From the UHGV virus genome UHGV-0153635: a stretch of DNA of 44,021 nucleotides. One strand, given 5' to 3'. Shown here in pieces: positions 3,354 through 44,021 of this stretch. The DNA comes from a virus. The position numbers and the translations under genes were made by a program. The notes below the pieces were generated by a model. The model was given only the letters and a program-made list of their open reading frames with translations. It searched no databases and was not told where the DNA came from. The number at the start of each line of letters is the position of its first letter. Within the stretch, counting starts at the first letter, position 1.

Positions 3354-3699
3354 TTGAATCCCCTTAATTCTGCACCCTCGCTGTGAGGACGCTTAACTAA
3401 GAAACTTCTCTTAGCGAGTCACCCTTTACTGGTTAGACTCTCATCGGTTCTCCCTGCGGGAATGCCCGGACGCACCCTTCGACACATTTTCTTTGTGGCC
3501 TAGTGTCTCGCTCGACCTCCTCAGCAGATTTTTAACGTGACGCTGGGGACCCCACCTGACTTTAGCGGCACTTCACAGTGCGTTTGCTTGCTATCTAAGT
3601 TACTGCGTGTTTCTGTACTTGTCAAGCTCTGTTTCTGAACTTTTGCTCTTAACTCTCTAGCTAGCGCCTTGATAGGCTGGCTAGTTGCCAGCGCTACCG

Positions 3700-4903: not shown

Positions 4904-4955
4904 AAATGTCCTCAAATTAATTACCTATAGTATATAGCGTAGCGCCTATACGCTA
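4904..4955 (-). repeat. copy 1 of a duplicated ~45-bp upstream element (second copy 5555..5604)
   Basis: Shared core AAATGTCCTCAAATTAATTACC plus TATAG..AGCGTAGCG..TATA with hairpin potential, read on the plus strand in both copies. Confidence 0.5.
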
Positions 4956-5534
4956 AAACGGAAACTCTGAGTCGTCAAAGTGCACTAGCACTGTATCAGC
5001 AGTAGCTACAACCCCCGGTACAGTTCGCATAGCCTCAGCACGTTCCTGCTCTTGCAGTATAGAACGTATCGACATAACCTCAACCAGATACTGCAAGCCC
5101 CGCTCAGCCCTGCTAACAGCCCTCTCCGCACAGTACAGGAAATCCTCCCAGGCAACCGGGCAGTAACGCAGCTTCAGGCTCATAAGGTCCTGTACAGCGC
5201 TCAGGAGCATACCTCTCTGCACTGCATCTAGTCCCTGTATTACATCTATCCGGCTGTACAACTCCCTCTGCTTATCCTGTATAGCAGCAGCATCCAGAGC
5301 CTGCACTGTACCAATTAGCATAGGCTGTAACCCCCTGAGTCTGTCCAGTACTGGATTATCAGAATCCGCTAGCTCAACAGGCATTCCTAAGTGCCAGACC
5401 CTGGCTGTACCGGCATCACTACGAGGCTTATGCTGCTTCCTGGCTGGAGCAGGAACCTCACAGCCTAACTCCGTGTCCCAGTAGTAGTTCTGCTTCTTAC
5501 CGTCTACCCGGCGCTGCTTACGCAGTATCGTCAT
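4953..5534 (-). CDS. hypothetical protein (193 aa); leftmost gene in phage orientation
   Basis: ORF track; ATG 5534 with GAGGAGGG RBS. Confidence 0.55.
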   Translation of the reverse strand: MTILRKQRRVDGKKQNYYWDTELGCEVPAPARKQHKPRSDAGTARVWHLGMPVELADSDNPVLDRLRGLQPMLIGTVQALDAAAIQDKQRELYSRIDVIQGLDAVQRGMLLSAVQDLMSLKLRYCPVAWEDFLYCAERAVSRAERGLQYLVEVMSIRSILQEQERAEAMRTVPGVVATADTVLVHFDDSEFPF

Positions 5535-5554
5535 AGTACCCTCCTCAACATAGT

Positions 5555-5604
5555 AAATGTCCTCAAATTAATTACCCTCCTTATAGAGCGTAGCGAGTAT
5601 AAGG
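5555..5604 (-). repeat. copy 2 of the duplicated ~45-bp upstream element
   Basis: Same core as 4904..4955. Confidence 0.5.
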
Positions 5605-5632
5605 TTAGGTAACTCTGGTTAACTCTGAGATA

Positions 5633-5661
5633 ACTATAGCACTCTGTACCTTAACGTGCAA
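5633..5661 (-). promoter_or_regulatory. sigma70-type promoter candidate (TTGCAC - 17 bp - TATAGT) overlapping one copy of the conserved 12-mer
   Basis: Minus strand reads TTGCACgttaaggtacagagtgcTATAGT about 100 bp upstream of ATG 5534. Confidence 0.35.
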
Positions 5662-5689
5662 CCTCTGTAGTTAAAGCTGTGGCTAATCC

Positions 5690-5945
5690 TGTGCTATCTC
5701 CGGTCTATACCTGTGGAGTCTATGGCTATCCTTAGGCTATCACTGCGCTGCACAGAGAAGACGAAAAGAGGTAAGGCAGCGCCCACCTCCGCCACCACAC
5801 TAAGCACAGCCCAGAGCTATCACTCAGAGCCAACCAGAGCCACGCTAAGGCTATCACAGGGCTATCCCTATGCTATCCCATTGGCTATCCGGTAGAAGCG
5901 CTTAGAGAAGCTCCCAGAGCCTCGTAGAGGCCCCAGGCTATCCGC
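5690..5945. repeat. array of about nine GCTATC-core heptamer repeats (GGCTATC on plus, GATAGCC in phage orientation); candidate genome-terminus region
   Basis: Copies read at about 5693, 5724, 5735, 5816, 5849, 5860, 5870, 5883, 5937 in the only large intergenic gap between the last late gene and the first left-end gene. Confidence 0.55.
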
Positions 5946-6159
5946 TGGTAAGCACAGGCCCCCACCCCACCCCGGCCTTAGTTATGGCTGAGGCACCCCC
6001 TATGGGGGAACTGAGGGGCGTTGAGGGTGAGGGCCAGCCTCGCGTAAGTATAACATTTTTAGGGAGCGAGTATACACCTGCCCCAGTGACAATCCCATAC
6101 TAAGCCTGCCAGCTCTAGCAAGCCCAATGCACTGGCACTGAGCCTGCTCAGGGACCAAC

Positions 6160-7824
6160 CTAGCGCACAACGAACTTACCGAGGCTAATATCGTTAACCA
6201 GGGTAGCTACGATACTAGATAACTGCGTAGTAGTAAGGGTATTAACATCCCCACCGCGTAAGGTGGCGGCATTTGTAAACGGATACGCTTGCGGCTGCTT
6301 AGTATCGAAGAACTGATTCCCCTGCTCGTACCGGTAAGCTGGTGTAGTTGTATAAAGTATTCCGTTCGTAGTTACAGGAACAGAACAATTCACGATGTTT
6401 ACATGCGCAGCGAGACCGGCGCACTCAATAGGACGAGCAACAGTGCCGAACGGCTGAACACCTACCAGACGGTTTATGTTCAGGCTCTGTGCCGCCTGCG
6501 CATACAGATAAGAACTAGGAAGGCCGTTAACACCGCGAATATTCCAGTTATCTACTTCAATATGTCGGGCATTAATAATCTGGCAGATTGCTTGACCGTC
6601 TGCATCAGGATTTGCGCCAACAATACGCACATTCTTAATAGTGATGTCGGAAGTAGCTGTTGTGTTCGCCCCACAGTTAATCATAACAGCTTTAGAACCA
6701 GATTGTGTGCAGTGGATTGTCAACCCGTCAAACTCAATATCACCTAGATTTACTGTGTGAGAGGAGCCGGCCTGGCGTAAAAAGAACACAGCCCAATCCG
6801 TGTGGTTGGATATTAAGATATTACTAAAGCGCAGTCGTGTGACTTCTACCGGATAGAATCTGCATAAAATCCCCTGAGAGCAGTTTCGGATGAAGATGTT
6901 GTCGTAAGTGACATCACGTGAACCCTCAATAGCAATACCTGCATTACAACTTTCAATGTATAACCCGGTCACGCTGCCGTTGGAGAAGTTCGCGCGGAGG
7001 CCATGTGATTCACAGTTCTTGATGGTTACGCCGCTGATGTTTACACGCGTAATTGCAGTACCCCCACCAACGCCAGCCCCTAAATCGTCAGACTGAAGGC
7101 GCAACCCATTACCGCCGGAGCCATTAATGCTGACATCGTGAATCATCACGTTAAGTGTGCGACCTGGTTTGGATGAATCCACAAACACAGAAGATGCCCA
7201 AGTTGTTTGGGTGCGTACATGATGAATGTGCGCTTCGGTGGCATTACCAACAACAATCGCCATACCCTGCCGGTTACTTCCGTCTGGATTCTGTATTTGT
7301 CCGCGACCGCAGTCATGAGAATAAAGATTATCAGCAATTACCCAGCGTCCGTGCTCCATGGCTACGTTATTCTGCCACGCTCCCTGTAACTCGCACCCTG
7401 AAAGCTCAAGAGTACCAGCGGATTGCATAGCCAGCCCAACCCCTGGGGTAAAGGACGCATCCTGTCGATAAAAATCAAACAGGAAATTTCCAACGATACG
7501 AATATCATAGGGGGTGTAATCAAACTCCTGATTTGCTTCGTTCCAGGTACGAGGTGAACGCAACACAAACTGGCGAGAGTCTACGATTACTTTAGGTAGT
7601 TGCGTACGTATCCTTACATCTGTTGGGATAATAAATAACCCCTCTAAAGTTACCGGGGTGTAGGCCACCTCTATATTACCACCCGTAGATAGTGCCGCCT
7701 GTAATTCAGAGTCACTACGAACAACCTTCCAACCACTGAGTAGTCCGTCCAGCGCCGCGCCTACTGTAGTATCATTATAATCCACCTGGTATGCATCTAC
7801 GTGGATGTTTTCAACAAGGGCCAT
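6160..7824 (-). CDS. tailspike protein, right-handed beta-helix (pectate-lyase-like) polysaccharide depolymerase candidate
   Basis: 554 aa with recurring beta-helix-like motifs (IKNCESHG, IESCNAGIAIEGS, IRNCSQGI, IVNCSVP) and Gly/Asn/Ser/Thr-rich content; ATG 7824 with AAGGAG RBS; last gene of the late operon. Confidence 0.65.
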   Translation of the reverse strand: MALVENIHVDAYQVDYNDTTVGAALDGLLSGWKVVRSDSELQAALSTGGNIEVAYTPVTLEGLFIIPTDVRIRTQLPKVIVDSRQFVLRSPRTWNEANQEFDYTPYDIRIVGNFLFDFYRQDASFTPGVGLAMQSAGTLELSGCELQGAWQNNVAMEHGRWVIADNLYSHDCGRGQIQNPDGSNRQGMAIVVGNATEAHIHHVRTQTTWASSVFVDSSKPGRTLNVMIHDVSINGSGGNGLRLQSDDLGAGVGGGTAITRVNISGVTIKNCESHGLRANFSNGSVTGLYIESCNAGIAIEGSRDVTYDNIFIRNCSQGILCRFYPVEVTRLRFSNILISNHTDWAVFFLRQAGSSHTVNLGDIEFDGLTIHCTQSGSKAVMINCGANTTATSDITIKNVRIVGANPDADGQAICQIINARHIEVDNWNIRGVNGLPSSYLYAQAAQSLNINRLVGVQPFGTVARPIECAGLAAHVNIVNCSVPVTTNGILYTTTPAYRYEQGNQFFDTKQPQAYPFTNAATLRGGDVNTLTTTQLSSIVATLVNDISLGKFVVR

Positions 7825-9193: not shown

Positions 9194-11044
9194 TTAGTAC
9201 CTTCCTTTTCTTCTAGTTAAACCCCGGTCAATCCGGGCCTGTGTACCACGGCTGCGCGGGGCAACCATACTTTGCTTCCAGTCCATAGGGTTATCCATGA
9301 ACTTACGAGCTTGCTTCTGCTGTTCCTTCTCAGCAGATACCTTCTCGTCCTCAACCAGGAAGCCGTTGAGTTCTGCTACGAGCATAGCTACTGCGTCGGC
9401 ACGGTCGTCCTTTGCTAAGCTACCACGGTCGTAGGTAATGCTTTGGAGCTGTTGGAACGCGCTATATAACCAGCGCTTATCGCGGCTATAGGCCATGCAG
9501 CTCTGAATGTCGTCTGTAAGCGCCCTAGAATGCACTACAAGGCGATGCCTGCGCGTCACTGGGGAGATGGTATCGATGATACGCCTCTCCTTCTGTGAGG
9601 TGTTGTAGCCCCCTCTAACGCCTATACCGGGAATCTTACGCTCGCGCAGTCGGTTCATGAACAGCATCTCTACTGTACCATGCCCCATGTTGCTCTCGAT
9701 GAACAGGTCCGAGATACCCAGCTCAATAGCCAAGTCAATGAGCTTGTCGATGTTCTCGGTGCTGATACCTCCCTGGAACCCGCCTACAGAGAACAGGTGC
9801 AAGTACGAGTTCGCTGCCCCGCCCGCTGCATAAGACACCTCATCCCCACCACAACCAGCAGGGTCAATCACCATGAGCTTGTGCTGGTACGGCAGCATCA
9901 GCTCACCATAGCTAGCTGGCTGGTACAGCAACTGCCCACGGATACCTTCGTGTTCCTCCGTATAGAGGTAGCGCTTGTCCGCAATATAGCTTAGACGGTC
10001 CGGGGCTGCATCATGCGAACCCGAGTAGACCATGCAATCGCTGAGCTTAATCCTTGTTCTCATTGCGTCAGACATAGTAGTGTCGAGCATGTACTGCAAC
10101 TGGAAGCCCTCTGGACCAAAGTCCAGCTCCTTCTCAATCAGAGCATCCTCGTCGTAACGCCCCTTGTCTGCGCACTCCCCTAAGGTTCCGTCTAATCCGA
10201 ATCCGGTACGTTTATACCCGCGCTCAATAAGCTCACAGATATAAGGAGCAAGTGTATCGCCATAACGTTCCTGCATTTCCTCGTTTGGTATACGACCAGG
10301 CCATACGCGCACTTCAAAGCCACGCCCCGGCAAGGTCTTGTAGATACTATCCTTAGTCTGAGGTGTTCCCAGATACAGCGTATCCCCGTGCGTACAGATA
10401 GCGGCGAAGTCCTTGGATATCATGAGCAACTGCTCACGCATCGTCTGGGTCAGGCCATTCTTCGTAGTCTCAATATCATCCGGGATAAGCAGGTCCGCAC
10501 GCTTACCCTGCAACTGCGCAGTAATACCTACGCACGCAATGCTAGCGGACTTATCCAGAGGCTTCAGGTCGCAGTGCACGTCATAACCCTCGTAAGAGGT
10601 GCGGTCGCCACGGGCCGGGTCAGCCTTGAGGTAGCACAGCAAAGGCCACGTTTCAATCATACGAATGACCAGCGTAGCCACCTCAGACGCCTGCTTCTCA
10701 CCACCAGATACAATCAGGATACGACAGCTCTGGTCCTGTATCAGACGCCACACCGCATACAGTGCAGCCAGGGTAGACTTAGCCTCACCACGCTGAGCAG
10801 CGACCATGCGCTTGCGCGGACCTTTCTGCATGAACTCTGCTATATCGGCCTGCATCTCCGTAAGGTTAAATCCGAGGAACTTCATACCTAAGTATGCGAA
10901 CTCCCGGAAATCCTTCAGAGTCACAGCCATCATCAGCGCTACTTCCTCACGCTGGTCCTTCGGGATAGTTCTTGGGCTATCATTCATTACCGTTGTACGA
11001 GCACTGATGAGCTTGAGTCTGCTCAGTGTAGTTTGGCTTATCAT
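9194..11044 (-). CDS. terminase large subunit (T7 gp19-like)
   Basis: 616 aa, size and position after the small subunit; global resemblance to T7-type terminases. Confidence 0.85.
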   Translation of the reverse strand: MISQTTLSRLKLISARTTVMNDSPRTIPKDQREEVALMMAVTLKDFREFAYLGMKFLGFNLTEMQADIAEFMQKGPRKRMVAAQRGEAKSTLAALYAVWRLIQDQSCRILIVSGGEKQASEVATLVIRMIETWPLLCYLKADPARGDRTSYEGYDVHCDLKPLDKSASIACVGITAQLQGKRADLLIPDDIETTKNGLTQTMREQLLMISKDFAAICTHGDTLYLGTPQTKDSIYKTLPGRGFEVRVWPGRIPNEEMQERYGDTLAPYICELIERGYKRTGFGLDGTLGECADKGRYDEDALIEKELDFGPEGFQLQYMLDTTMSDAMRTRIKLSDCMVYSGSHDAAPDRLSYIADKRYLYTEEHEGIRGQLLYQPASYGELMLPYQHKLMVIDPAGCGGDEVSYAAGGAANSYLHLFSVGGFQGGISTENIDKLIDLAIELGISDLFIESNMGHGTVEMLFMNRLRERKIPGIGVRGGYNTSQKERRIIDTISPVTRRHRLVVHSRALTDDIQSCMAYSRDKRWLYSAFQQLQSITYDRGSLAKDDRADAVAMLVAELNGFLVEDEKVSAEKEQQKQARKFMDNPMDWKQSMVAPRSRGTQARIDRGLTRRKGRY

Positions 11045-11045
11045 C

Positions 11046-11345
11046 TTAAATAATCCCTGCTAAATCATCCTCTGGGTCTGCCCCGGCCTGGGCTAATAGC
11101 TCCTCAGCCTTGGCTTTACGCTTGGCTGCTAGCTCATCCTCGAATACATCCCGCAGCTCCTGCATCTCCGCAGAGTCTGCATCTGCCGTGATGTCATTGT
11201 CCTTGAGGAATTTCGCTATCACGGATTTATCCGCCGCAGGTAAAGGAATCTCCTCCTCCCCCGCCTGCTTGAGTTCGCTAATTAGCGCCTCAGTAAACAT
11301 CCTGTGAAGTTCGCTGAGGCGGCTCTTGGTTGCCGCCTTTGCCAT
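11046..11345 (-). CDS. terminase small subunit (T7 gp18-like)
   Basis: ATG 11345..11343 overlaps the tail-fiber stop (TAATG); acidic ~99-aa product; track ORF 11046..11519 trimmed to this internal Met. Confidence 0.55.
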   Translation of the reverse strand: MAKAATKSRLSELHRMFTEALISELKQAGEEEIPLPAADKSVIAKFLKDNDITADADSAEMQELRDVFEDELAAKRKAKAEELLAQAGADPEDDLAGII

Positions 11346-29297: not shown

Positions 29298-31739
29298 TCA
29301 ACAAAAGAAGAATGGGGATTCAAGTACTTGCGTTAAGTCCAGAGTGCCTTTCTGAGGCATCTCTAAACCTTCCAGGTCTGCGCCGCACTCTACCGCTGCG
29401 TCAGCCAGCGTTTGCAACGGGTCGTGCTCGGTGTACAAGCGCAGGAACTGCTCACGAATAGCTTTATGCATTGCGTCAACATCACAGGCATGCGTAGCCA
29501 GCGAGTCATGGATAGGCAGGATATCACCGTCGAAGGCGTTCAGTACCATCATCAGGTGCGTACTATCCAGCGAGTGCACGAAGTTCGGAGCGATACCAGA
29601 CTTAGCCTTACGGCGATTGTTCTGCTCGTAGTTACGGTTGTAACTGAGCAGGTACGTCAGGTTCATACTCTGAACTTTAACCCGGCACTCATCAGACTCT
29701 GTGTAGCGGTTAATGACCAACCCACCCAGCGGAGTCTTCCACTGTAAGTGCCGCTTAGTCGGGACACGTCCTGTAATCTGCTGAGCAAAGCGCATAGCCT
29801 TGGCAGCCGCAGGGTTAGCCTCCTCTACAGCAGCGCGCATACGCGGAGCTAAGTACCCTGCGAGCTTAAACAGGCTATACTCCTCAGTAGGCTCATAACC
29901 CTCATCCTTAGCACCCAGTAGGATGTACTCAGAGCAACTGCGTACAGTCGCAGAATACACATAGGTCATACAGGGGCGCTTGGTCATACTCCTAGTAATT
30001 GGGTTCTCTCTCCAGTACGTAGCCTGCACTACGTGCTCTGGGTCAGTGAGGTCCATGATTACCTTGGAGTCCGTGCGCTCCTTCACGTCCATGTACATAT
30101 CCGCTTTCTCTGCGTTACCCTCCCAGAACAGGTTCGTTAAGCGCCCACCGATTGGGTCCCGGAGCATTGCGCTGTAGTGCTGAGAACCCGAGTTTGTAGC
30201 GTCCATAGCGACTGGTACGTGCGATACATACTCTCGCGGCTCCACAGAGCTAAGAGCATTAACAAGCTCGACTGCTGCTGCCAGGAAGCACCATGGACTA
30301 TCTGCCTGTTTAAAAGCGTCCGAATTAAATGGGTCATCTGCCAGGCGTCTAATCGCTTCATAGTTCGCATCAGCCCAAGCTGCACGGGCTTCGAATAGGG
30401 CTTTGTCATAACCAAAGCAAGTGGCGACATGCACCTTGAGCCAAAATAATCCACGCTCCCCAAGCGGTTTTCCGCGACCAAATTCAAGCAAGGCCTTCTG
30501 CAAATCAGAACCTTGTGGGTGCAGGCTGGACTTGAAGTACAGGCGGTATCGCCAATCCACACAAGTCGGGAAGTACAGCTCTGTTTCATCTTTGAACTCC
30601 TCGCACATACTTACGGTTGTAACCAGGGCGCGAAGCTGCCCTACGCGAGTACGCTCATCCGCGTACCACTGGCGCATATGCATCTTCCACTCCTGGAACT
30701 CCTCAAGCTCACGCTCAGTGTACTCTTCCTTAGGCACACCATCCAAGCGCCACTCTGGTTTAGGGGCTGGGTTGCTGCTAGGCATGCCTGTGCTTACTCC
30801 CAAGGCACGCGCCTGCTGCACCAGCTTCAGCATAGTCTTATTAATACGGTACGGCACTTCCTGAGCACGATTCAGAGCCTGCTGTAACTGCGGAGCCTGC
30901 TTGAACGCCTCGGCTACTTCACGCTTCATGCTTCGCTGAATCTGTGAGTTGCTGTAAGTACCGCGTCTATCAATGTCCGTGAGGTATCCACCGGAGAACA
31001 TCGTATCATGCGGCTGCGGCGGGATAAGCATAGGTGGCTTCAGCTGCACTGTATCGGCGTGCTCTACCAGCTCAGACAGTACCTGCTCCAGCGCTGGGGC
31101 TGGGGTGAGATACTGCAACTGCGTCTTATCGCGCTTGCTCCACACGAACAGCCCGGTTTCCCACACCGCCTGCATCAAGAGCTTGCCCACGGAGATGCAC
31201 TGTGAGTTCGACCAAGGCTCATGCTGGTAATGCACGTTCTCAGCAGAGGCACGCAAGGTCTTCAGGATATGCGAGGGGCTGGTGGTATTACGTTCCTTCA
31301 GGTACTCATGCACCCGGTTCATATATGCCGGGGCTACAGCCTGGAGCTGCACAGCCAGTAGCTCCGCCTGAACCTGACGGCCCAGCGCAGAGAGCACGGA
31401 CTGTGCTGAGCTGGCACTGTTAGTGCCTACGTTAGAGAATAGCGAATCGAAGCACTTCGTCAAGGACATTACGGCCAGGACATCCGTAGGGATTAAGCGC
31501 AGGAACGCGCGGTACTTAGCGCCTACACCAGCAGTCTTCTCCTGCTTAGTGCTGTTGATGCCTGCGCATACAGTGTCGTATGCAGCCGCAATCATACGCT
31601 GCACTGGCGGCAAGGTGCTGAGGCTACCAGAGTCCAGGGCTTTCTGCACCAGGCTCTTGCTGCGCTCCAGGCTGCGTGTACGGTACTGCTGCTCTAGCTG
31701 GAGCTGTCGCTCTGTGCGTTCTTCTAAGGTTTCTTTCAA
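29298..31739 (-). CDS. single-subunit DNA-directed RNA polymerase (T7 RNAP family)
   Basis: 813 aa; SGSQHYSAMLRD, IAPNFVHSLDSTH, C-terminal ESPFFFC align with T7 RNAP motifs; TTG start with GAGGA RBS. Confidence 0.95.
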   Translation of the reverse strand: MKETLEERTERQLQLEQQYRTRSLERSKSLVQKALDSGSLSTLPPVQRMIAAAYDTVCAGINSTKQEKTAGVGAKYRAFLRLIPTDVLAVMSLTKCFDSLFSNVGTNSASSAQSVLSALGRQVQAELLAVQLQAVAPAYMNRVHEYLKERNTTSPSHILKTLRASAENVHYQHEPWSNSQCISVGKLLMQAVWETGLFVWSKRDKTQLQYLTPAPALEQVLSELVEHADTVQLKPPMLIPPQPHDTMFSGGYLTDIDRRGTYSNSQIQRSMKREVAEAFKQAPQLQQALNRAQEVPYRINKTMLKLVQQARALGVSTGMPSSNPAPKPEWRLDGVPKEEYTERELEEFQEWKMHMRQWYADERTRVGQLRALVTTVSMCEEFKDETELYFPTCVDWRYRLYFKSSLHPQGSDLQKALLEFGRGKPLGERGLFWLKVHVATCFGYDKALFEARAAWADANYEAIRRLADDPFNSDAFKQADSPWCFLAAAVELVNALSSVEPREYVSHVPVAMDATNSGSQHYSAMLRDPIGGRLTNLFWEGNAEKADMYMDVKERTDSKVIMDLTDPEHVVQATYWRENPITRSMTKRPCMTYVYSATVRSCSEYILLGAKDEGYEPTEEYSLFKLAGYLAPRMRAAVEEANPAAAKAMRFAQQITGRVPTKRHLQWKTPLGGLVINRYTESDECRVKVQSMNLTYLLSYNRNYEQNNRRKAKSGIAPNFVHSLDSTHLMMVLNAFDGDILPIHDSLATHACDVDAMHKAIREQFLRLYTEHDPLQTLADAAVECGADLEGLEMPQKGTLDLTQVLESPFFFC

Positions 31740-43409: not shown

Positions 43410-43793
43410 TTACTCCTTCTCGTTTAAGTATTCCTGCATCTTCTTCTCCAGAACCTTCAGAGAACTTCCGGCCAGCTTCTGAACATCCGGGTTTTTAGCT
43501 ACCGCCTCAACGCCACTTGCTGCTGCCATGGTGTAAATAGTCTTGGTAGTGGGCACAAAGGGGTACATCAGCAACAGCACTGCCCATACTACAGCCGCAT
43601 AGCGCACTACTTTAAAAGAGGATTTACGCGCGGACTGTTCTGCCTCATAGCTGTTTGTTAGCATGTCCGCTAGCATTAGTATAATCATAGGGGAGAGTAC
43701 CAAAGCAAACCCTCCCAGCACCAACACAATCTCCAGCGTTGACTTAACACCGCCAACAGTACCTGCCAAGTAGATAAAAGTAGCAAAGTTCAT
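43410..43793 (-). CDS. membrane protein (127 aa) between primase and helicase
   Basis: ORF track; several hydrophobic helices. Confidence 0.5.
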   Translation of the reverse strand: MNFATFIYLAGTVGGVKSTLEIVLVLGGFALVLSPMIILMLADMLTNSYEAEQSARKSSFKVVRYAAVVWAVLLLMYPFVPTTKTIYTMAAASGVEAVAKNPDVQKLAGSSLKVLEKKMQEYLNEKE

Positions 43794-44021
43794 TTTAAAC
43801 CCTCCAGAATCTCTGAGATATTACATGCCTTAGGGTCGTCCCTAAGCACCCGGTCGTGCACTGGCAGGAACGGCTTCAGGGTACGCTGTATCGTCTTAGC
43901 CCCGGCCCAGCCAGCTTCGTCATTGTCCAGCATCAACAGCACTGGCTTACCAAGCTGAATCAGCTTCGCTTTCAGCGGCAGCGATAATCTGGTCCCAAGT
44001 AAGGCTACCGCCGTAACAGGT
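43790..44021 (-). CDS. DNA primase, 3' portion with Toprim DxD motif; continues from 1..536
   Basis: Translation entering from the window edge gives ...VLLMLDNDEAGWAGAKTIQRT...ILEGLK, then TGA overlapping the next ATG (ATGA). Confidence 0.6.
   Translation of the reverse strand, partial: PVTAVALLGTRLSLPLKAKLIQLGKPVLLMLDNDEAGWAGAKTIQRTLKPFLPVHDRVLRDDPKACNISEILEGLK

What the first reader, a model, noticed from the sequence alone, without database searches (positions are those of the whole stretch)
5690..5945. Array of about nine GCTATC-core heptamer repeats in the only large intergenic gap: likely genome-terminus region
The repeats (GGCTATC on plus, GATAGCC in phage orientation) sit within about 250 bp between the last late gene (ends 6160) and the first left-end gene (starts 5534), next to G/C-rich tracts (cccccaccccaccccgg). 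T7 is known to carry short repeat arrays flanking its terminal repeats, so this is where the packaged ends and direct terminal repeat are most likely located.
Basis: partly seen in the sequence, partly recalled or inferred. Interest (0 to 1): 0.5.

Follow-up and report, generated by a model that had tools for sequence, protein, structure and literature searches.

The report
Phage genome-end repeat with heptamer array
The repeat cluster is real and lies in and just beside the terminal repeat of a T7-type Enterobacter-type phage genome that the assembler closed into a circle. It is an ordinary kind of feature, though this heptamer array seems not to have been described before.

Summary
Nine co-oriented GCTATC cores lie at 5693-5942 on the + strand. 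About 0.09 are expected per strand, and GATAGC is the most clustered hexamer in the whole window.

The window is a Koutsourovirus genome (about 91% identical to Enterobacter phage phiKDA1). Its genes are on the minus strand, and the assembly is circular and opened inside the primase gene. The 625-bp gap at 5535-6159 is therefore the concatemer junction.

By alignment to phiKDA1's annotated 267-bp terminal repeat, the single collapsed direct terminal repeat (DTR) is 6032..5777 on the minus strand (256 bp). The left end (CCTCACCCTCAACG...TTCCCCCATAGGGGGTGCCT) matches phage fHe-Kpn01, whose ends were mapped experimentally, and T7, in the same register.

Six heptamers lie inside the DTR. Three lie between it and a candidate early promoter. 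None lies upstream of it.

The same 11-nt unit (GCTATCCCTAT/G) recurs 5-9 times at the left ends of 21 of 22 distinct Drulisvirus-like contigs, but in the opposite orientation. It is thus a subfamily-wide element in cis and the counterpart of T7's CCTAAAG arrays.

What the heptamers do is inferred only; my best guess is that they help assemble the packaging or processing complex.

Verdict: a new member of a known kind, of modest interest.

The parts
6160..7824 (-). Tail (spike) protein gene, the last late gene before the junction
   Evidence: PHROG 12242 tail protein, E 2e-111. It occupies the same position as the phiKDA1 tailspike but has no nucleotide match to it.
6038..6078 (-). Conserved, unique 41-nt block (GGTGTATACTCGCTCCCTAAAAATGTTATACTTACGCGAGG) immediately upstream of the predicted left cut. 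It is a candidate recognition element for cutting the left end.
   Evidence: Conserved in phiKDA1, SDFMU_Pec, SDFMU_EhYP and, in recognisable form, in KP34, Dlv622 and NKA196. It occurs only once in the window, so it is not a repeated promoter consensus.
5777..6032 (-). Predicted direct terminal repeat, 256 bp, present once because the assembly collapsed the two virion copies. The left genome end is at 6032 (possibly 6033) and the right boundary is at 5777 +/- 2.
   Evidence: Aligns end to end with both annotated 267-bp direct repeats of phiKDA1. There is one copy in the window. The start CCTCACCCTCAACG matches the experimentally mapped fHe-Kpn01 end and T7's TCTCACAGTG in the same register.
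5996..6008 (-). Inverted repeat CCCCCATAGGGGG, 25 nt from the predicted left end
   Evidence: It lies at offset 25-26 from the left end in phiKDA1, KP34 and T7. An exact scan found it in 48 IMG/VR loci. On its own the fold is weak (z -0.9).
5959..5975 (-).
   Evidence: It is conserved in Koutsourovirus and present as GGGGGCGGGGTG in Drulisvirus.
5816..5942 (-). Six GATAGC(C) heptamers inside the DTR (+ strand GCTATC at 5816, 5850, 5861, 5872, 5884, 5937). They lie 91, 144, 156, 167, 178 and 212 nt from the left end, and four of them are spaced 11-12 nt apart.
   Evidence: The copies at 5889 and 5866 (first base on the minus strand) are intact in all four relatives.
5767..5790 (-). Hairpin plus T-run (GGAGGTGGGCGCTGCCTTACCTCT TTTC) that coincides with the right boundary of the DTR
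   Evidence: Terminator-like hit. In phiKDA1 and in fHe-Kpn01 the annotated or mapped DTR ends at the 3' side of the loop of the homologous hairpin (fold z -2.8 and -2.4). In the window itself the fold is weaker (z -1.4).
5693..5741 (-). Three GATAGC(C) heptamers to the right of the DTR (+ strand GCTATC at 5693, 5725, 5736), 292, 303 and 335 nt from the left end
   Evidence: The copy at 5698 is intact in all four relatives.
5633..5661 (-). Candidate sigma-70 early promoter: TTGCAC, 17 nt, then TGcTATAGT (an extended -10 element)
   Evidence: Read from the sequence. The block GAGGTTGCACGTTAAGGTA is invariant in five genomes. The consensus scan did not call it, because its -35 element matches only 3 of 6 positions.
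4953..5534 (-). First ORF after the junction (193 aa), of unknown function
   Evidence: No PHROG match and no similarity to phiKDA1 ORF2.
9194..11044 (-). Terminase large subunit, the enzyme expected to make the two cuts
   Evidence: PHROG 38, E 9e-113. It is 79% identical to the fHe-Kpn01 maturase B.
11046..11345 (-). Terminase small subunit (maturase A), a candidate binder of the heptamers
   Evidence: It is 71% identical to the fHe-Kpn01 maturase A, starting from the internal Met at residue 59 of the mechanical ORF.

Best explanation
The 625-bp gap is the concatemer junction of a T7-type phage of the genus Koutsourovirus (subfamily Slopekvirinae) that packages unit-length DNA with short direct terminal repeats.

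The assembly was closed into a circle and opened inside the primase gene, so the terminal repeat appears once, in the middle of the window.

The terminase (9194-11044 and 11046-11345) is expected to cut replicated concatemers at two fixed places. One is the left end, at 6033|6032, just after a conserved 41-nt block. The other is the right boundary, near 5777, in the loop of a conserved hairpin followed by a T-run. The 256 bp between the cuts is copied, so each virion carries it at both ends.

The GATAGCC heptamers have the 11-nt unit GCTATCCCTAT on the + strand. They are co-oriented and spaced roughly one helical turn apart. They straddle the right-hand boundary, with six to its left and three to its right, and they are this subfamily's counterpart of the CCTAAAG arrays in and next to the T7 terminal repetition.

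My best guess for their role is that they are recognition or architectural sites on which the packaging or processing complex assembles at the junction. That complex could be the small-terminase ring or a partner protein.

Shown: the existence of the array, its conservation, and its position relative to the homologous DTR. Inferred: the exact ends in this phage, and any protein binding.
For: Identity of the genome:
- It is 88-92% identical to phiKDA1 over about 33 kb and collinear with it across the window's ends. An ORF spans the junction of the window's two ends.

Placement of the DTR:
- Window 5760-6032 matches both phiKDA1 1-283 and 43508-43802.
- The DTR is present once in the window.
- The first 47 nt align in register with fHe-Kpn01, whose ends were mapped experimentally, and with T7.
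- In about 200 Drulisvirus records the homologous sequence is often annotated as a terminal repeat or lies at the end of the record.
- Terminase subunits are 71% and 79% identical to those of fHe-Kpn01.
- Short-read assemblers are reported to collapse the DTRs of T7-like phages and to open the genome mid-way (PMC10438801).

The array:
- P is about 1e-15, and GATAGC is the top-ranked clustered word in the genome.
- All five Koutsourovirus junctions carry 6-9 copies, and none has an inverted copy.
- Of 22 distinct Drulisvirus-like left ends, 21 carry 5-9 copies of the same core at conserved offsets, with the 11-nt unit shared.
- There is phasing at about 11 bp (R 0.85, p about 0.016), and relatives differ by 11-bp indels.
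- T7 has the equivalent anatomy: 11 CCTAAAG copies in its first 340 bp.
Against: - No read-level or virion data exist for this phage, so the ends rest on homology.
- I found no publication that says how phiKDA1's 267-bp repeat was determined.
- Individual heptamer positions are conserved only slightly more than their surroundings (58% vs 41% intact, p 0.055). Selection is therefore visible on copy number and orientation rather than on each site.
- Unlike T7's array on the other side of its terminal repeat, no copy lies upstream of the DTR in the window. The same holds for every Drulisvirus-like end with upstream sequence in the locus.
- In Drulisvirus the copies reach 700-850 nt from the end, which is far from either cut. 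Their orientation is also reversed. Neither fact is predicted by a simple terminase-site model.
- To my knowledge, the function of the T7 arrays themselves has never been established.
Confidence: 0.85

Rival explanations
1. The heptamers are operator-like or architectural sites for a host or early phage protein that controls early transcription or genome entry at the left end. Their overlap with the DTR is incidental.
For: Three copies lie 30-80 nt upstream of the conserved candidate promoter TTGCAC-17-TATAGT, and the copy at 5698 is invariant. In Drulisvirus most copies lie in the long leader to the right of the DTR, at 300-850 nt, where early promoters are expected. Direct repeats with an 11-bp period are typical of proteins that bind head to tail (own knowledge).
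Against: Six of the nine copies are 110-270 nt upstream of the candidate promoter, inside the DTR, and so are also present at the right genome end, where there is nothing to regulate. The promoter scan found no sigma-70 site. I could not match the motif to any known regulator.
Confidence: 0.2
2. The array is an iteron-like element for starting replication or for recombination at the left end.
For: It consists of co-oriented short repeats with one-turn spacing near a genome end. T7 has a secondary origin near its left-end promoter phiOL (own knowledge; the promoter is annotated at 405).
Against: There is no adjacent A+T-rich unwinding region; the gap is 53% G+C against 52% for the genome. No initiator gene lies next to it. 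T7-type origins depend on phage promoters, not on iterons (own knowledge). The array also lies within the duplicated terminal repeat.
Confidence: 0.07
3. The heptamers have no function of their own. They are a by-product of replication slippage or unequal exchange in a non-coding region that is under relaxed constraint.
For: Relatives differ by indels of unit length (11 bp), and copies turn over in position. Per-site conservation is barely above background.
Against: The same 7-11-nt unit is kept at 5-9 co-oriented copies in more than 25 diverged genomes of two genera, although most of their leader sequences no longer align. The orientation is strictly uniform within each genus. Three copies are invariant in all five Koutsourovirus genomes.
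Confidence: 0.12
4. The region is not a genome terminus: the phage packages by the headful and is circularly permuted, or its ends lie elsewhere.
For: The window contains only one copy and carries no physical-end information.
Against: There is homology to annotated and experimentally mapped DTRs, and the terminal sequence is shared with T7. The terminase is of the T7 type and is 79% identical to that of a phage with mapped DTRs.
Confidence: 0.04

Closest known systems
Direct terminal repeats of Enterobacter phage phiKDA1 (JQ267518, annotated 267 bp; genus Koutsourovirus)
   Same: The sequences are homologous at about 88% identity, with the same start (CCTCACCCTCAACG), the same hairpin at the right boundary, and the same GATAGC array in the same orientation.
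   Different: The window's version is 256 bp and lacks an 11-bp unit. One heptamer that is intact in the window is GGATAACC in phiKDA1. The flanking tailspike and first early gene are unrelated.
T7 terminal repetition (160 bp) with its arrays of short CCTAAAG repeats beside it (Dunn and Studier 1983, own knowledge; sequence checked)
   Same: It lies in the same place in the genome map. The first ~45 nt are alignable, including TTCCCCCATAGGGGGT at offset 25-26. Both have co-oriented heptamers inside the repeat and immediately to its right. In T7 a transcription pause signal (ATCTGTT, 161-167) lies right at the right boundary, where this phage has a hairpin plus T-run.
   Different: The heptamer sequence is different (GATAGCC vs CCTAAAG), and the spacing is about 11 nt rather than about 13 nt. 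The window has no array to the left of the repeat. Most copies here lie inside the repeat rather than beside it.
Drulisvirus terminal repeats (KP34 216 bp; fHe-Kpn01 222 bp, ends mapped experimentally, PMC7291057)
   Same: They share the terminal sequence, the boundary hairpin and the terminase (71% and 79% identity). They share the 11-nt repeat unit GCTATCCCTAG/T, at 5-9 copies.
   Different: The array is in the opposite orientation relative to the genome. It lies mostly to the right of the repeat, out to about 850 nt. It is accompanied by other repeat families (CTAGTG, ACTAGTCCTT) that are absent from the window.
Small-terminase recognition repeats of other tailed phages (lambda cosB R sites, SPP1 pacL/pacR boxes; own knowledge)
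   Same: This is a 'works like' comparison only: several short repeats, phased by about one helical turn, on both sides of a terminase cut.
   Different: Binding has not been shown here. No sequence-specific binding site is established for T7-type small terminases. There is no sequence similarity.

Membership tests
T7-type genome ends with short direct terminal repeats | The same sequence is present at both ends of virion DNA | not testable with these tools
   The window holds one copy. No reads or virion data are available. The closest relative, phiKDA1, is annotated with two identical 267-bp copies.
T7-type genome ends with short direct terminal repeats | Sequence homology to a terminal repeat whose ends were mapped experimentally, in the same register | tested here: met
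   The start of the window's DTR aligns base for base with position 1 of fHe-Kpn01 (mapped ends, PMC7291057) and of T7. The right boundaries fall in a homologous hairpin.
T7-type genome ends with short direct terminal repeats | Position between the last late gene and the first early gene of a genome transcribed in one direction, which also encodes a single-subunit RNA polymerase | tested here: met
   Tail protein at 6160-7824, first ORF at 4953-5534, RNA polymerase at 29298-31739, all on the minus strand.
T7-type genome ends with short direct terminal repeats | T7-type terminase | tested here: met
   PHROG 38 terminase large subunit, E 9e-113. It is 79% identical to that of fHe-Kpn01.
T7-type short-repeat arrays beside the terminal repeat | Many co-oriented copies of a heptamer concentrated at the junction and at background frequency elsewhere | tested here: met
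   Nine of the 21 same-strand copies in the genome lie within 335 nt of the left end. T7 was treated the same way: 11 CCTAAAG copies in its first 340 nt.
T7-type short-repeat arrays beside the terminal repeat | Arrays on both sides of the terminal repeat in the concatemer | tested here: not met
   No copy lies in 6033-6159. None lies in up to 400 nt upstream of any Drulisvirus-like end that has upstream sequence. Only SDFMU_Pec and SDFMU_EhYP have one or two upstream copies.
T7-type short-repeat arrays beside the terminal repeat | Sequence relationship to the T7 heptamer CCTAAAG | tested here: not met
   The motif here is GATAGCC, with no similarity. The relationship is one of position and form only.
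Iteron-type replication origin | Adjacent A+T-rich unwinding element and a neighbouring initiator gene | tested here: not met
   The gap is 53% G+C against 52% for the genome. The neighbouring genes are a tail protein and an unknown 193-aa ORF with no family match.
Known structured RNA families | Match to an Rfam covariance model | tested here: not met
   No match up to E = 1 in 5400-6300 on either strand.

The most novel reading that the evidence does not exclude
The 11-nt GCTATCC unit could be the long-sought sequence-specific recognition element of T7-type packaging in this subfamily. On this reading it is bound by the conserved small terminase or a partner, and it works in either orientation, as the inversion between Koutsourovirus and Drulisvirus would imply. 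That would give a defined, portable packaging signal for these Klebsiella and Enterobacter phages.
Probability: 0.25. Interest if true: 0.5.

Novelty: new member of a known kind. Interest (0 to 1): 0.3.

Why it matters
In practice, the analysis says where to re-open and re-orient this genome. Base 1 should be window 6032 on the minus strand, with a second copy of 6032..5777 added at the right end. It also shows that the assembly is complete.

Biologically, it shows that one short unit, GCTATCC, is kept in multiple co-oriented copies at the left end of every Slopekvirinae genome examined except one (L021). The orientation is flipped between the two genera. I found no paper describing this. It gives a concrete, mutable target for asking what the short-repeat arrays at T7-type genome ends do, a question left open since the T7 sequence was published.

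These phages are candidates for therapy against Klebsiella and Enterobacter. Correct ends and a defined packaging signal matter for engineering them and for designing transducing particles.

Tried and rejected
- Tandem Repeats Finder found no array, because the copies are interspersed.
- The sigma-70 scan found no promoter. The candidate promoter I list is my own reading plus its conservation in relatives.
- Rfam gave no match, and no tRNA genes were found.
- Literature searches found nothing on phiKDA1's ends, on terminal repeats in the Kp34likevirus paper, or on the T7 arrays by their published labels SRL and SRR. A search for Koutsourovirus returned four papers whose titles do not concern genome ends, and I did not open them. 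Statements about the T7 arrays and T7 packaging therefore rest mostly on my own knowledge, plus short remarks in PMC3276506 and PMC3350473.
- The small ORFs across the array (5713-5895 +, 5732-5857 -, 5694-5807 -) are rejected as genes. Relatives differ there by 11-bp indels that break any reading frame, and the region is a duplicated terminal repeat.
- I considered that the conserved 41-nt block upstream of the left cut could be a phage promoter consensus. I rejected this as a repeated element, because it is unique in the window.
- I compared the motif by eye with the DnaA box and with direct-repeat sites of response regulators and found no convincing match. This was not a formal test.
- I tested whether the array is a simple block inversion relative to Drulisvirus. 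Only 29-37-nt stretches of two or three units match on the opposite strand. What is shared is therefore the unit, not an inverted segment.
- The first early ORF is not homologous to phiKDA1 ORF2.

Full report
**What is in the sequence.**
The + strand of 5690-5945 carries GCTATC at 5693, 5725, 5736, 5816, 5850, 5861, 5872, 5884 and 5937. All nine copies have the same orientation, and six have the preceding G. The rest of the window holds 32 copies on both strands, so about 0.09 are expected in a stretch this size on one strand. The Poisson P is about 1e-15, and no shuffle gave more than 3 copies in any 256-bp window. I also counted the densest 300-nt cluster for every hexamer and heptamer. GATAGC and GATAGCC (the phage-strand reading) rank first in the genome. 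Four consecutive copies are spaced 11, 11 and 12 nt apart. Over all nine copies there is modest phasing at about 11.2 nt (R 0.85; 1.6% of random placements do as well). Tandem Repeats Finder reports nothing, because the copies are interspersed.

**What the window is.**
All long ORFs are on the minus strand. They include a single-subunit RNA polymerase, a T7-type large terminase and a tail protein. The structural half is about 91% identical to Enterobacter phage phiKDA1 (Autographiviridae, Slopekvirinae, Koutsourovirus) and to four other Enterobacter or Salmonella phages. The whole window is collinear with phiKDA1. The window's last and first bases join inside the primase region, and an open frame spans the joint. 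So this is a complete genome that was assembled as a circle, opened at an arbitrary point and reverse-complemented. That is the usual fate of T7-like genomes in short-read assemblies, which also collapse the two terminal repeats into one (PMC10438801). The 625-bp gap at 5535-6159 lies between the last late gene (tail protein, 6160-7824) and the first ORF of the left end (4953-5534). It is therefore the concatemer junction.

**Where the terminal repeat is.**
phiKDA1 is annotated with identical 267-bp left and right direct repeats. Window 5760-6032 aligns to both and occurs once in the window. The homologous interval is 6032..5777 on the minus strand, 256 bp.

I found no paper saying how the phiKDA1 repeat was determined, so I looked for an independent anchor. 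Klebsiella phage fHe-Kpn01 (Drulisvirus, the sister genus) has blunt ends and a 222-bp repeat. These were established by PhageTerm, restriction mapping, Sanger sequencing and a ligation assay (PMC7291057). Its record starts CCTCACCCTGAACG. phiKDA1 starts CCTCACCCTCAACG, and the window reads CCTCACCCTCAACG from 6032 downwards. T7 starts TCTCACAGTGTACG. In all of these genomes the inverted repeat CCCCCATAGGGGG lies 25-26 nt from the end. The terminase subunits of the window and of fHe-Kpn01 are 71% and 79% identical. About 200 Drulisvirus records contain the homologous segment, and many have it annotated as a terminal repeat or lying at a record end.

The right boundary is also conserved. In phiKDA1 and in fHe-Kpn01 the repeat ends at the 3' side of the loop of a hairpin that is followed by TTTT. 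The window has the same element at 5790..5767, though its fold is weaker there (z -1.4). I place the right boundary at 5777 +/- 2. Immediately upstream of the left cut lies a 41-nt block (6078..6038). It is conserved across both genera and unique in the window.

**How the heptamers sit in this map.**
Measured from the predicted left end, the copies start at 91, 144, 156, 167, 178 and 212 (inside the repeat) and at 292, 303 and 335 (to its right). The last one lies about 30 nt upstream of a conserved block that reads as a sigma-70-type promoter, TTGCAC-17-TGcTATAGT at 5661..5633. This is my own reading. The block is invariant in five genomes but was not called by the scan. No copy lies between the tail gene and the left cut.

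**Relatives.**
All five Koutsourovirus junctions carry 6-9 GATAGC copies and no inverted copy. Three copies are intact in every genome. The others turn over, and relatives differ by 11-bp indels. Per-site conservation is only marginally above background (58% vs 41%, p 0.055), but number and orientation are maintained.

An exact scan of IMG/VR for the anchor CCCCCATAGGGGGTRCCT gave 48 loci. Twenty-four of them are distinct Slopekvirinae-like left ends with at least 900 nt downstream. One of these is phiKDA1, and another (L021) has essentially no array. The other 22 carry 5-9 copies of GCTATC in the forward orientation, which is inverted relative to Koutsourovirus. The copies lie at conserved offsets near 128, 150 or 205, 310-345, 420-470 and 700-850, often as pairs 11 nt apart. 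None lies in up to 400 nt upstream of the end.

The extended unit is shared: GCTATCCCTAG/T in Drulisvirus and GCTATCCCTAT on the window's + strand. Stretches of two or three units match across genera only on the opposite strand. T7, analysed in the same way, has 11 CCTAAAG copies in its first 340 nt, 3 inside and 8 to the right of its 160-bp repeat, plus a weaker array on the other side.

**Interpretation.**

The mechanism I consider most likely is T7-type packaging. Concatemers carry one repeat per junction. Terminase makes sequence-specific cuts at the two boundaries, and the repeat is duplicated (general statements in PMC3350473 and PMC10438801). [quoted passage not shown] The T7 pause sequence ATCTGTT lies at 161-167, immediately after the repeat (its identity as the pause site is my own knowledge). 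The hairpin plus T-run at the window's right boundary is in the equivalent place and may do the equivalent job. That is an inference.

The heptamers straddle this boundary. I propose that they are phased binding or architectural sites that assemble the processing complex, by analogy with small-terminase sites in other phages (own knowledge). This last step is unproven, and several facts fit it poorly:
- The orientation is reversed between the two genera.
- In Drulisvirus the copies reach 850 nt from the end.
- There are no upstream copies.
- The function of the T7 arrays is, to my knowledge, unknown.

The rivals are regulatory sites for early transcription, an iteron-like origin, and slippage products with no function. 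They are scored in the rival section. The last one fits poorly with the retention of one unit in more than 25 diverged genomes.

**Novelty and verdict.**
Terminal repeats of this genus are annotated in GenBank, and short-repeat arrays at T7-type ends have been known since 1983. This is therefore a new member of a known kind. I found no description of the subfamily-wide GCTATCC unit or of its inversion between genera. That observation is a small but usable lead into an old open question. Interest: 0.3.

Noticed in passing
L016-L062 (IMG/VR left ends), L012:1-900, L004:1-720, compared with window 5693-5942: The same GCTATCC unit is strictly co-oriented within each genome. It points one way in all Koutsourovirus genomes and the opposite way in all Drulisvirus-like genomes that carry it. 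Only units two or three copies long align across the genera, and only on the opposite strand.
   Followed up: partly
window 5767-5790 (-); L013:240-290; L012:195-245: The right boundary of the terminal repeat falls in the loop of a conserved hairpin followed by TTTT. T7 has its polymerase pause sequence ATCTGTT at the equivalent position (161-167). MAFFT even aligns CCTTACCTCTTTT with CCCTATCTGTTAC.
   Followed up: partly
window 5996-6008; L007:26-38: CCCCCATAGGGGG, with flanking TT...T.CCT, lies 25-26 nt from the left end in T7 (Studiervirinae) and in both Slopekvirinae genera. This is a striking conservation of the terminal 45 nt across subfamilies whose genomes otherwise no longer align.
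   Followed up: partly
window 6038-6078 (-): A 41-nt block just outside the repeat, upstream of the left cut, is conserved in both genera and unique in the window. T7 has an A/T-rich stretch in the same place. It may be part of the signal for cutting the left end.
   Followed up: partly
window 6160-7824 and 4953-5534: The two genes that flank the junction are the ones that do not match phiKDA1. The tail protein has no nucleotide match, which looks like a swap of the receptor-binding module. The first early ORF (193 aa) has no PHROG match and no similarity to phiKDA1 ORF2.
   Followed up: partly
window 1 and 44021: The window's two ends join inside the primase region. An open frame of 270 codons spans the joint, and phiKDA1 is collinear across it. 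The record is therefore a circularised assembly opened at an arbitrary point.
   Followed up: yes
L012:534-570 and L012:679-730 (fHe-Kpn01 leader): The Drulisvirus leader contains further tandem arrays with a period of about 11 nt (ACTAGTCCTT..., TAGTATTAGA/TAGTATTGGT...), and CTAGTG occurs nine times from position 71. None of these is present in the window.
   Followed up: no
window 5959-5975 plus 5996-6000; L007:88-134: The phage top strand of the repeat carries four G-runs (GGGGG...GGGGTGGGGTGGGGG). The T7 repeat also has a series of G-runs (GGGTTGGGG...GGG...GGG). A G-quadruplex is conceivable; I did not test this.
   Followed up: no
junction alignment, columns 403-417 and 472-485 (L008, L009): SDFMU_Pec and SDFMU_EhYP carry two copies of the boundary element GCGCTTACCTCTTTT about 70 nt apart. 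Their repeat boundary therefore cannot be read off by homology and may differ.
   Followed up: no
window 3354-3699: This is the second-largest stretch without a minus-strand ORF of 40 codons or more (346 bp), and it lies in the early region. I did not examine it.
   Followed up: no
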